Shown piece after piece: positions 6,914 through 8,216 of a stretch of 64,000 bases of DNA (positions within the stretch are counted from its first letter, which is position 1; the number at the start of each line of letters is the position of its first letter). Below the pieces are notes generated by a model. The model was not told the origin of the DNA and searched no databases. It saw nothing but the letters and a program-made list of their open reading frames with translations. Position numbers and translations under genes: made by a program. The stretch comes from an uncultured Clostridia bacterium (GTDB taxonomy: Bacteria > Bacillota > Clostridia > Christensenellales > UBA1242): the NCBI GenBank assembly GCA_934778205.1, contig CAKVOD010000006.1, positions 23,050 to 87,049 on the forward strand. Reading direction: 5' to 3'.

Positions 6914-7924
6914 TCACAATATCACGACGTTATTAGAAGTTCCACCACCACTAAAAGACAATGTGAATGTGTTTATGACAGCATCGGTTGTCGGGTCTTG
7001 CACCGTATAAGTGTACTTGCACCCCGAAAGTTCGCCACTGCCCGTCGCTGTAATCGACCACATATATGGCTTGCTGATTAAAAGTTCAAAAGTATCTCCA
7101 ATCTTTTGATTAGGTATAATAATATTCCCATTATTTGCTTGAGCAAATTGTGCTATCATAGCACCATTTTTTTGTAAATACACAATGACGCCACTATTGT
7201 TTGCCCCCTGCACTGCAATGTTGATTGTCACATCTGCATTCGTCGGCCCCATATCTGCCCACTCCGCTTTCAATAAGTATCCATAATATGAAGTCGCATC
7301 TCCACTATTAAGTTTAAAAATCATATTACTGCTTATTGCCCCAGTAGAAGTAAATTCACAAGTAGTTGATGTCGACGTTATTTTTGCATTGTTGGATTCA
7401 CTTGCAGTTGGATAGGCTATTGAAAACCCCATAAATTTTTTGTCAACACCAAAGTCAGCGCCACTAAAAACTTTATAAATATTATCTAGTGTTACGCTTG
7501 ATACTATAAAACCAGAATCTAAGTACGAGGTTGACTTTAGCGTTAAATCAACTACATTATCGGAAATACTAGTATATTTATTATATTTATTCGAGTTTAC
7601 GTCAAACAAAGATGCAGAACCATTAATTTTAGTAATTGAAGAACTTGAGCCAGTATAATAACTGCCAGACCAAGCAATACTACTTAGCTTTGAAAGAGTA
7701 TTTTCACCTATATCGCTATCATCTAAATTTAAATCTATATAAACCCCCATTCTCACACCATCAGGGGATGGTGCCGCAAAAGTAGCATCCTTATCATTAA
7801 AATTATAACAAAATAGTGATACTCCCATAAATAATGCTAACGCAAAAAACCATAATGCAAACATTATGGCAAATAATTTTTTGCTATTTGATTTTGTATA
7901 TAGTTTGTATCGTTGACTTTCCAT
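6914..7924 (-). CDS. variable membrane-anchored surface protein, family member 2 (short form; long form to ATG 8150 needs a 1-nt tract change)
   Basis: The ORF track gives 6914..8053. An internal ATG at 7924 is followed by MESQRYKLYTKSNSKKLFAIMFALWFFALALF. The N-terminal 75 aa are nearly identical to member 1 and the ectodomain has diverged. Confidence 0.75.
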   Translation of the reverse strand: MESQRYKLYTKSNSKKLFAIMFALWFFALALFMGVSLFCYNFNDKDATFAAPSPDGVRMGVYIDLNLDDSDIGENTLSKLSSIAWSGSYYTGSSSSITKINGSASLFDVNSNKYNKYTSISDNVVDLTLKSTSYLDSGFIVSSVTLDNIYKVFSGADFGVDKKFMGFSIAYPTASESNNAKITSTSTTCEFTSTGAISSNMIFKLNSGDATSYYGYLLKAEWADMGPTNADVTINIAVQGANNSGVIVYLQKNGAMIAQFAQANNGNIIIPNQKIGDTFELLISKPYMWSITATGSGELSGCKYTYTVQDPTTDAVINTFTLSFSGGGTSNNVVIL

Positions 7925-8113
7925 ATTACATACACCCTCTGCACATTTTTTATTCTCAGCAAAATTAGTATTAGTAATATGTACATTTTTTATTATATTT
8001 TTTTGAATAGAACTATTTTTTATGTTTTTACAATTTGTGCAAGTATCTTGCAAATTTCGACAGTATTCTTCATTCTTTTGAGGGGTTATACTGTCATTTT
8101 TTGCATCATTATA

Positions 8114-8126
8114 CCCCCCCCCCCCC
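8114..8126 (-). repeat. homopolymeric G13 tract (C13 on + strand)
   Basis: Counted as 7 + 6 C. It lies 8 codons after the ATG at 8150 (ATG ATT TTT AGA ACA AAA GTG CTA). Confidence 0.9.
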
Positions 8127-8187
8127 TAGCACTTTTGTTCTAAAAATCATAATATTTGTTCTCCTTGTTCCTTGATTTTTCACATTT

Positions 8188-8216
8188 ATTTTACCACAAA
8201 TGGCGCAAAATACCAA
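8188..8216 (-). promoter_or_regulatory. promoter TTGGTA-17-TGGTAAAAT
   Basis: It has the same architecture and the same distance (38 nt) to its ATG as locus 1. Confidence 0.55.

What the first reader, a model, noticed from the sequence alone, without database searches (positions are those of the whole stretch)
7924..8216. Locus 2: same switch, again G13 and again one base out of frame
On the minus strand the elements read TTGGTA-17-TGGTAAAAT, AAGGAG, ATG 8150, ATT TTT AGA ACA AAA GTG CTA, then G13 (8126..8114). As in locus 1, the ATG frame terminates at GTA TAA right after the tract. The long frame is closed only by the TAG at the tract edge and is open for 63 codons down to the internal ATG at 7924. 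Identical tract length and frame state in two loci could mean both are in the same state in the sequenced population. It could also reflect a systematic homopolymer call, or decoding that relies on transcriptional or ribosomal slippage on the G-run.
Basis: partly seen in the sequence, partly recalled or inferred. Interest (0 to 1): 0.7.

Follow-up and report, generated by a model that had tools for sequence, protein, structure and literature searches.

The report
Poly-G on/off switch, surface protein gene
A run of 13 G's just after the start codon of a surface-protein gene in an uncultured human-gut Clostridia bacterium is a real slippage-type on/off switch, a textbook mechanism seen here in a new gene family and lineage.

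Summary
The minus strand carries a promoter (TTGGTA-17-TAAAAT with TG), AAGGAG, ATG 8150, an 8-codon leader and G13 (8126..8114). The leader frame stops at TAA 8111..8109. A 399-codon frame opens at the tract.

The window has only four G/C runs of 8 or more. All are on the minus strand with the same architecture (loci at 5435, 8126, 29652, 51015). All are out of frame here and would be in frame at G12 or G15.

Independent gut-metagenome assemblies settle the interpretation. One contig matches the window over 10,937 nt with 0 substitutions and differs only by G12 at this locus, giving a called 411-aa protein. Another matches over 15,460 nt and differs only at the two tracts (G12/G12, both genes full length). 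Across 23 scored tracts I found G11 x2, G12 x8, G13 x11 and G14 x2.

This is classical slipped-strand phase variation, not a fixed frameshift that needs recoding. Any single length call remains a population consensus.

The products are N-terminally anchored membrane proteins. They share only the first ~100 residues and carry unrelated beta-rich ectodomains, with no Pfam or NCBIfam family for loci 1 and 2. The closest published analogue is the G-tract pilus switch of Bifidobacterium breve. Novelty: new member of a known kind.

The parts
8188..8216 (-). Sigma-70-type promoter: -35 TTGGTA (8216..8211), 17-nt spacer, extended -10 TGgTAAAAT (8196..8188)
   Evidence: Read and found by the consensus scan. 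The same TTGRTA...TGGTAAAAT arrangement is conserved in loci 1 and 4 and in paralogues from other MAGs. Function is inferred, not shown.
8161..8166 (-). Shine-Dalgarno AAGGAG, 10 nt before the leader ATG
   Evidence: GGAG is conserved in loci 1-3.
8127..8150 (-). Eight-codon leader ATG ATT TTT AGA ACA AAA GTG CTA (MIFRTKVL), the only start that can feed the long frame
   Evidence: The identical leader DNA is found in paralogues from three other Clostridia MAGs. It is the N-terminus of the full-length proteins P0005, P0006, P0008 and P0016.
8114..8126 (-). Poly-G tract, G13 here (OFF); in frame at G12 or G15
   Evidence: G12 at the same locus in L001/L016, L015 and L017; G13 in L002 and L003.
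8109..8150 (-). OFF-state product of the leader frame: 13-codon ORF MIFRTKVLGGGGV, then stop TAA 8111..8109
7877..8113 (-). N-terminal cytoplasmic module of the long frame (YNDAKNDSITPQ...CRNLQDTCTNC...CAEGVC; 5 Cys), reachable only through the tract
   Evidence: The frame is open only in this register in all paralogues; the other two frames are full of stops. It is conserved at protein level between loci 1-4. No Pfam hit. Low pLDDT.
7922..7939 (-). Internal ATG 7924..7922 preceded by SD-like GAGGGTG (7939..7933, 8-nt spacing). This is a candidate start for a short 336-aa isoform and is the start gene callers use for OFF alleles
   Evidence: Locus 1 has AAGGAG-8 nt-ATG at the same place. 336-aa and 289-aa calls appear. 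It is not conserved in paralogues P0005, P0006, L005, L006, L009. Use as a start is not shown.
7808..7876 (-). Single transmembrane anchor LFAIMFALWFFALALFMGVSLFC, with Lys-rich flank on the N side and acidic flank on the C side (N-in, C-out)
   Evidence: Hydropathy maximum of 2.5 over 19 residues. It lies within the long helix of the AF2 model.
6914..7807 (-). Beta-rich ectodomain plus stop codon. The C-terminal ~115-aa domain (7291..6944, ILVSKPYMW motif) is the module shared by the family
   Evidence: AF2 gives pLDDT above 90 for the C-terminal domain. All 21 library relatives match mainly this part. Foldseek's best hits are Gram-positive pilins and adhesins at low TM-score.
4364..5459 (-). 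Sister locus 1: same promoter, leader and tract (G13 at 5435..5423, OFF); ON product 364 aa
   Evidence: G11, G12 and G13 in other assemblies. 364-aa P0016 called in L017.
27336..29676 (-). Sister locus 3: leader MKNRTNVL, G13 at 29652..29640 (OFF); 779-aa ON product with a Hint/intein-N-like C-terminus
49734..51037 (-). Sister locus 4: leader MIKNLTKW (22 nt before the tract), G14 at 51015..51002 (OFF; ON at G12 or G15); product carries a Listeria-Bacteroides repeat
   Evidence: G12 (433-aa gene called), G13 and G14 in other assemblies.

Best explanation
Locus 2 is a contingency (phase-variable) gene. A sigma-70-type promoter and a good ribosome-binding site drive translation from ATG 8150 through an 8-codon leader directly into a hypermutable poly-G tract.

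Slipped-strand mispairing during DNA replication adds or removes single G's. When the tract length is a multiple of three (G12 observed, G15 predicted), the ribosome reads on. It then makes a 411-aa, N-terminally anchored membrane protein with a beta-rich, adhesin-like ectodomain. At G13 (this window), G11 or G14, translation ends after 13 or 21-22 codons and the full-length protein is not made.

The same promoter-leader-tract-anchor module heads at least four genes in this window, and more in related genomes. Each has a different ectodomain and each switches independently, so a population carries many combinations of surface proteins.

Shown here:
- the anatomy of the locus;
- length polymorphism of the tracts between otherwise identical genomes;
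- the existence of in-frame alleles;
- independence of the loci.

Inferred:
- replication slippage as the cause of the length changes;
- promoter and ribosome-binding-site function;
- surface exposure of the product;
- the selective benefit.
For: 1. Anatomy. A leader ATG is followed 24 nt later by G13, and the long frame opens exactly at the tract. A promoter-like site was found by the scan.

2. Non-randomness. Four poly-G tracts occur against 0.02 nine-base matches expected, and there are no other G/C runs of 8 or more. All four are on the coding strand at the same position relative to a leader ATG.

3. The tract lengths are the only differences between independent assemblies.
- L001 against the window: 10,937 nt, 0 mismatches, one 1-nt gap.
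- L017 against the window: 15,460 nt, 0 mismatches, two 1-nt gaps.
- L002 is identical over 8,749 nt.

4. Allele table.
- Locus 2: G13, G12, G13, G13, G12, G12.
- Locus 1: G13, G13, G11, G12.
- Locus 4: G14, G13, G12, G14.
- Paralogues in other MAGs: G11, G12 x3, G13 x3.
- The state combinations at loci 2/1 are OFF/OFF, ON/OFF, ON/OFF and ON/ON, which shows independent switching.

5. In-frame alleles were called as full-length genes by independent pipelines.
- 411 aa (P0008, on 5 contigs), 364 aa (P0016), 433 aa (L020), and P0005 and P0006.
- Truncated 336-, 379- and 289-aa calls dominate elsewhere.

6. The post-tract region is coding in the long frame in every paralogue, and the other two frames are full of stops.

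7. The same mechanism is experimentally established for G11/G12 tracts in 5' parts of pilin genes of the gut commensal Bifidobacterium breve (PMC9187656). It is also established for poly-G tracts of 8 or more in Campylobacter, which are 95% G on the coding strand (PMC6321876).
Against: - No read-level data are available, so heterogeneity and reversibility within one population are not shown.
- All lengths come from short-read metagenome consensus. Such consensus is error-prone at G11-G14. Contigs break at the tracts and Ns sit beside one.
- All four loci are OFF in this window, and G13 (OFF) rather than G12 is the commonest length. ON at 8 of 23 is close to the one third expected for unselected drift.
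- No expression data exist.
- An internal SD-like sequence plus ATG (7939..7922) could make OFF less than null at this locus.
Confidence: 0.85

Rival explanations
1. Isoform switch rather than on/off. The tract decides only whether the ~75-aa Cys-rich cytoplasmic module is attached. A short 336-aa signal-anchored protein is made from internal ATG 7924 in every state.
For: - ATG 7924 is preceded by GAGGGTG at 8-nt spacing, and locus 1 has a perfect AAGGAG-8-ATG at the same place.
- The Met is also present in locus 4 and L007.
- The short product would begin MESQRYKLYTKSNSKK followed by the TM helix, which looks like a normal signal anchor.
- Gene callers choose this start.
Against: - Paralogues P0005, P0006, L005, L006 and L009 have no Met between the tract and the TM helix, and P0027 has Ala at that position. 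This cannot be the general logic of the family.
- The SD-like bases are also forced by the conserved residues A-E-G-V.
- Premature termination 190 nt upstream may cause polarity, as argued for the Bifidobacterium loci in PMC9187656.
Confidence: 0.12
2. Fixed out-of-frame gene decoded by programmed RNA polymerase slippage or ribosomal frameshifting on the G run. In this view DNA length is not the regulator.
For: - Long homopolymers are known slippage sites for RNA polymerase; this is general knowledge, reviewed in PMC1088944 and PMC5009743, mainly for A/T runs.
- All four loci in the window are out of frame.
Against: - DNA alleles of G11 to G14 exist, including in-frame G12 in about a third of observations.
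- Loci 1-3 (G13) and locus 4 (G14) would need shifts in opposite directions.
- The leader region has no significant RNA structure (z = 0.34) and no Rfam match.
- Leader length varies (24, 25 or 22 nt), with the ON length changing accordingly.
Confidence: 0.04
3. Assembly or sequencing artefact. The true tract is in frame (G12) everywhere and the apparent frameshift is a homopolymer miscall.
For: - Illumina data are unreliable at long G runs.
- Contigs end at the tracts and L003 has Ns beside one.
- PMC9187656 shows a database G11 that is really mostly G12.
Against: - Calls range over four lengths and differ in both directions.
- One scaffold (ERZ28614141 scaffold_1035) agrees with the window at locus 2 (G13) but differs from it at locus 4 (G13 against G14).
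- Even if a given call is wrong, a G12-G13 tract at this position is hypermutable by its nature.
Confidence: 0.04
4. Decaying pseudogenes that happen to be broken at a homopolymer.
For: All four loci are out of frame here. The family is tiny and lineage-restricted.
Against: - The frames are otherwise intact over 364 to 779 codons at all four loci.
- There are no substitutions and no other indels relative to ON alleles.
- Promoter, RBS and leader are conserved across species-level MAGs.
Confidence: 0.02

Closest known systems
Bifidobacterium breve UCC2003 sortase-dependent pilus genes bbr_0113a/b and bbr_1889a/b (intragenic G11/G12 tract; PMC9187656)
   Same: - A Gram-positive gut commensal.
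- A poly-G tract of 11-12 in the 5' part of a surface-protein gene splits it into a short first ORF and a long second ORF.
- Replication slippage fuses the two ORFs.
- Two loci give four combinations of states.
- The database length differs from the true population mix.
   Different: - Those are LPXTG pilins with Sec signal peptides in sortase operons of an actinobacterium.
- Here the products are N-terminally TM-anchored. They have no LPXTG: the C-terminus is ...SGGGTSNNVVIL.
- The genes are monocistronic and lie among housekeeping genes.
- They form a multigene family that shares one 5' module.
Campylobacter jejuni poly-G contingency loci (phasome; PMC6321876)
   Same: - A low-GC genome in which poly-G is essentially the only SSR class.
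- G lies on the coding strand, inside ORFs.
- There are many loci per genome.
- The proportion ON is close to neutral expectation.
   Different: - Campylobacter tracts are mostly G9-G10, with 13-15 rare. Here they are G11-G14.
- Campylobacter targets are mainly glycan-modifying enzymes at varied positions in the ORF. Here the targets are surface proteins, with the tract at a fixed place 22-25 nt after the start.
Neisseria opa genes (CTCTT repeats in the signal-peptide coding region) and Helicobacter pylori hop/bab/sab genes with 5' CT repeats (own knowledge, not tested here)
   Same: A paralogous family of surface proteins in which each copy has a frame-setting repeat in the conserved 5' leader part. 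Copies switch independently, and mosaic recombination occurs among them.
   Different: Those use penta- or dinucleotide repeats, not a homopolymer. The proteins are outer-membrane beta-barrels of Gram-negative bacteria, and there is no sequence relationship.
Streptococcus pyogenes sclB/scl2 (CAAAA repeats just after the start codon; own knowledge, not tested here)
   Same: A Firmicute surface protein whose translation is set by a repeat immediately downstream of the start codon.
   Different: It uses a pentanucleotide repeat, is a single gene, and encodes an LPXTG-anchored collagen-like protein.

Membership tests
SSR-mediated phase-variable (contingency) locus | Simple sequence repeat above the mutability threshold (poly-G/C of 7-8 or more; PMC6321876) | tested here: met
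   G13 at 8126..8114.
SSR-mediated phase-variable (contingency) locus | Repeat placed so that length changes alter expression (within an ORF, or in a promoter) | tested here: met
   The tract lies 24 nt after the only usable start. Frame analysis for G12 to G15 shows ON only at 3n.
SSR-mediated phase-variable (contingency) locus | Repeat-length polymorphism between closely related genomes while flanks are conserved | tested here: met
   0 substitutions in 10.9 kb and 15.5 kb, with the only gaps at the tracts. Lengths G11 to G14 across assemblies.
SSR-mediated phase-variable (contingency) locus | Both ON and OFF alleles exist and the ORF is otherwise intact | tested here: met
   411-aa ON calls on 5 contigs against truncated calls on about 9. 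8 of 23 scored tracts are in frame.
SSR-mediated phase-variable (contingency) locus | High-frequency, reversible switching within a clonal population | not testable with these tools
   No reads or cultures are available. The only indirect signs are contig breaks and Ns at the tracts.
SSR-mediated phase-variable (contingency) locus | Protein expression follows repeat length | not testable with these tools
   This needs reporters, proteomics or antibodies.
Programmed recoding site (transcriptional slippage or ribosomal frameshift) | Out-of-frame arrangement fixed and conserved among orthologues | tested here: not met
   Orthologous loci carry G11, G12, G13 or G14, including in-frame G12.
Programmed recoding site (transcriptional slippage or ribosomal frameshift) | Stimulatory element (structured RNA or internal SD at defined spacing) | tested here: not met
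   MFE z-score 0.34 for 8186..8050. No Rfam match. The single-sequence fold is a weak test.
Sortase-dependent pilin or LPXTG surface protein (as in the Bifidobacterium G-tract loci) | C-terminal LPXTG sorting signal and an adjacent sortase gene | tested here: not met
   The C-terminus is ...LSFSGGGTSNNVVIL with no LPXTG and no C-terminal TM helix. The neighbours are fba and mnmA.
Sortase-dependent pilin or LPXTG surface protein (as in the Bifidobacterium G-tract loci) | CnaB/Ig-like pilin fold | tested here: inconclusive
   The top Foldseek hits are S. pyogenes T-antigen pilins (E 3e-6), but TM-scores are only 0.2-0.3 and identity about 9%. Model pLDDT is 75.

The most novel reading that the evidence does not exclude
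The tract may be more than a binary DNA switch. RNA polymerase slippage on G11-G14 could make out-of-frame alleles leaky. The conserved internal SD plus ATG (7939..7922; a perfect AAGGAG-8-ATG in locus 1) could yield a short signal-anchored isoform in OFF alleles. Each locus would then toggle between a long form carrying a ~75-aa Cys-rich cytoplasmic module and a short form lacking it, at graded levels.

The promoter-leader-tract-anchor unit would be a portable 5' cassette spread by recombination onto unrelated ectodomains. That would give an uncultured gut Clostridia lineage a large combinatorial surface repertoire.
Probability: 0.15. Interest if true: 0.6.

Novelty: new member of a known kind. 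Interest (0 to 1): 0.4.

Why it matters
Phase variation in gut commensals has mostly been catalogued through invertible promoters. Repeat-driven switches are known mainly from pathogens, plus one Bifidobacterium case.

This is an uncultured human-gut Clostridia lineage with about one poly-G switch per 16 kb in this window. Each switch sits on a different surface protein of an unannotated family, so strain-level surface heterogeneity is probably large and is invisible to standard annotation.

Gene callers truncate or split these genes: most database entries are the 336-, 379- and 289-aa OFF forms. Assemblies also break at the tracts.

These loci could serve as natural markers for bottlenecks and for selection by phage or IgA in metagenomic time series. 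The mechanism itself is textbook, so the value lies in extending its known range and improving annotation. It is not a new principle.

Tried and rejected
- **Exact-protein look-up of mnmA and P0009.** Neither is on record.
- **Metagenome contigs pattern scan.** It returned only two high-GC chance hits (L013, L014).
- **Genome-contig hit L010.** The tract there sits in a promoter spacer. About one chance match is expected for the 20 specified bases of the genome contigs pattern in 1.2e12 positions, so I did not use it as evidence.
- **L011 (CALVIT01).** It has a 25-nt leader, and a second ATG abuts the tract, so its state is ambiguous. I left it out of the tally.
- **N-terminal 117-aa query against the 5.8-billion-protein index.** Nothing passed the E-value threshold, so the number of genes carrying the cassette could not be counted this way.
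- **Pfam and NCBIfam scans.** They gave no family for loci 1 and 2.
- **Rfam and RNA folding of the leader.** Both were negative.
- **TATAAT after the tract as a second -10 box.** Rejected. No acceptable -35 lies 16-18 nt upstream at any observed tract length, and TATAAT is replaced by AATGAA or AATAAT in paralogues L006 and L007.
- **Tandem-repeat scan.** It found no other class of candidate switch repeat in the window.
- **Literature searches.** They found no description of this family or lineage.

Full report
**1. The observation**

- TTGGTA lies at 8216..8211.
- After a 17-nt spacer comes TAAAAT at 8193..8188, preceded by TG. The consensus scan lists this site with 9/12 matches and TG present.
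- AAGGAG lies at 8166..8161, with ATG 8150 ten nt later.
- The leader is ATT TTT AGA ACA AAA GTG CTA.
- G13 lies at 8126..8114.
- In the ATG frame the tract is followed by GTA TAA, with the stop at 8111..8109.
- The other frame is closed by TAG 8128..8126. It then stays open through ATG 7924 to the stop at 6914.

One detail needs correcting: the 17-nt spacer runs to the TAAAAT hexamer, not to the TGG.

**2. Is it more than chance?**

Runs of 9 or more G occur at four places in the window, against 0.02 nine-base matches expected from dinucleotide shuffles. These four are the only G/C homopolymers of 8 or more in 64 kb.
- All four are G on the minus (coding) strand.
- All lie 22-24 nt after a leader ATG that has its own GGAG and, at loci 1, 2 and 4, a TGGTAAAAT-type extended -10; the locus 3 promoter was not examined.
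- The tracts are at 5435..5423 (G13), 8126..8114 (G13), 29652..29640 (G13) and 51015..51002 (G14).
- In every case the long frame opens at the tract edge, both other frames stop quickly, and the gene would be in frame at G12 or G15.
- No other class of simple repeat is present.

**3. The decisive comparison**

The aldolase gene next to locus 2 is found with an identical product on contigs from several human-gut metagenomes. I aligned the window to these contigs.
- L001 (Hadza, ERZ4567976): 10,937 nt, 0 mismatches, a single 1-nt gap.
- L017 (ERZ27286952, a 457,869-bp contig): 15,460 nt, 0 mismatches, two 1-nt gaps.
- L002: identical over 8,749 nt.

The gaps are the tracts.

| Assembly | Locus 2 | Locus 1 |
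|---|---|---|
| Window | G13 | G13 |
| L001 / L016 | G12 | G13 |
| L015 | G12 | G11 |
| L017 | G12 | G12 |
| L002 | G13 | not covered |
| L003 | G13 | not covered |

Where the tract is G12, the depositors' gene callers produced the full-length proteins. These are 411 aa for locus 2 and 364 aa for locus 1.

Locus 4 shows G14 (window), G13 (L019), G12 (L020, 433-aa gene called) and G14 (L023).

The protein clusters tell the same story. The 411-aa form sits on 5 contigs, and the truncated 336- and 379-aa forms on about 9.

So the tracts change while tens of kilobases around them do not. The loci also change independently of one another.

**4. The family**

A pattern scan of GTDB species representatives found the same leader plus tract in three further 'uncultured Clostridia bacterium' MAGs: CALDMJ01 (five loci), JBNMHN01 and CALVIT01. 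Lengths there are G11, G12 and G13, and several tracts lie at contig ends. Two further members (P0006 in L026, P0042 in L027) were fetched by exact-protein look-up.

P0005, P0006 and P0018 are database proteins that begin MIF(R/K)TKVLGGGGY..., which is the in-frame state.

A more distant member (P0042, L027) has a 25-nt leader and is in frame at G11. A 1-nt indel in the leader is therefore simply absorbed by the tract.

The tally of 23 scored tracts is G11 x2, G12 x8, G13 x11 and G14 x2. That is 35% in frame, close to the one third expected without selection.

**5. The products**

The four window proteins share only the first ~100 residues. These comprise the leader, Gly4, a Cys-containing region (YNDAKNDSITPQ..C..NLQD.C..C) and one hydrophobic helix.
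- For locus 2 the helix is LFAIMFALWFFALALFMGVSLFC. It has a Lys-rich N-side and an acidic C-side, which suggests an N-in, C-out orientation.
- Loci 1 and 2 have no Pfam or NCBIfam family.
- Locus 4 has a Listeria-Bacteroides repeat.
- Locus 3 ends in a Hint/intein-N-like module.

An exhaustive HMMER search of 1.84 billion representatives found only 21 relatives. They mostly share a C-terminal ~110-aa domain with the motif ILVSKPYMW. Several begin at the TTG of the N-L-Q-D motif, which means they were called from OFF alleles.

The AlphaFold model has mean pLDDT 75, and above 90 in the C-terminal domain. It shows a long helix followed by beta-sandwich domains. Foldseek's best matches are Gram-positive pilins and adhesins, but at TM-scores of 0.2-0.3. 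I therefore say no more than 'beta-rich, adhesin-like ectodomain'.

There is no LPXTG motif. The neighbours are housekeeping genes: fba, mnmA, AddAB, UvrD and FtsH.

**6. Mechanism**

The best-supported reading is classical slipped-strand mispairing at a homopolymer, which sets the translational frame. The full-length protein is made only at 3n lengths, and short peptides of 13 or 21-22 codons are made otherwise.

This works like the G11/G12 tracts in the first genes of two pilus clusters of Bifidobacterium breve. There, error-corrected sequencing showed mixed lengths within a culture and a shift towards the in-frame length in mice. That paper also warns that database G-tract lengths can be wrong (PMC9187656). 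It also works like the poly-G phasome of Campylobacter (PMC6321876). N-terminal placement of frame-setting repeats is the expected signature of selected phase variation (PMC3315296).

**7. Rivals**

- **Obligatory recoding** is disfavoured. In-frame DNA alleles are common. G13 and G14 loci would need opposite shifts. The leader RNA is unstructured (z = 0.34), and Rfam finds nothing.
- **A pure sequencing artefact** cannot explain a four-length spectrum. Nor can it explain why one scaffold that is identical to the window at locus 2 (G13) differs from it at locus 4 (G13 against G14). Any single call is still only a consensus.
- **Pseudogenes** are excluded by the intact frames and the conserved expression signals.
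- **One open point** is the internal ATG 7924 with an SD-like GAGGGTG, which is AAGGAG in locus 1. It could give a short anchored isoform in OFF cells. Several paralogues lack any Met there, so this is not the family's general logic.

**8. Verdict**

This is a real feature, correctly observed and correctly suspected to be a switch. The mechanism is well known. The gene family, its shared 5' cassette and the lineage (an uncultured gut Clostridia bacterium) are new. I found no paper describing them.

Reversibility within a population and the effect on protein level remain untested.

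Noticed in passing
L010 about 1988..2009 (JAZSRJ010000011.1, another Clostridia MAG): TTGACAaatttgcta-G10-TATAAT, followed 40 nt later by an RBS and ATG. Here the poly-G tract lies inside a promoter spacer (19 nt at G10), which would be a transcriptional rather than a translational switch. It may be a chance pattern hit.
   Followed up: partly
window 27336..27800 (C-terminus of the locus 3 product): This phase-variable 779-aa surface protein ends in a Hint/intein-N-terminal-like module. 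TIGR01445 scores 24.9 bits (cut-off 24.5); Pfam Intein_splicing is below its cut-off. A 674-aa protein with the same Pfam hit lies at the edge of L026.
   Followed up: no
L021, L022, L024 (locus 4); L004, L006, L007, L012; L003 6092..6101: Metagenome contigs end at, or within about 30 nt of, the poly-G tracts. One scaffold has 10 Ns just upstream of the locus 2 tract. The tracts evidently break short-read assemblies, which fits mixed lengths or poor read quality.
   Followed up: partly
P0001, P0002, P0003 compared with window 6914..7300: Family members combine a nearly identical C-terminal ~100 aa with strongly diverged N-terminal ectodomain parts. In addition, the 5' 390 bp of loci 1 and 2 are 91% identical while the rest is unrelated. 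This indicates mosaic recombination among paralogues.
   Followed up: partly
L027 3002..3037 and L011 5858..5894: These are variant leaders of 25 nt: ATGAATTTATCGAACAAATGTGCTA-G11, which is in frame, and ATGTTACAAGAGAACAAAAATGCTA-G12. The DNA just 5' of the tract (AACAAANNTGCTA) is conserved although the reading register differs, so the in-frame length there is 11 or 14.
   Followed up: partly
window 49377..49594: A 93-bp tandem repeat (2.3 copies, 70% matches) lies just downstream of the locus 4 stop codon. It is GC-richer than its surroundings.
   Followed up: no
window 10866..11993 and 9406..10077: Upstream of fba there is a 375-aa membrane protein with an RsgI_M domain (precomputed Pfam hit). 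There is also a 223-aa protein with one N-terminal TM helix and a Thr/Ala-rich ectodomain and no family. The region is rich in unannotated surface proteins.
   Followed up: no
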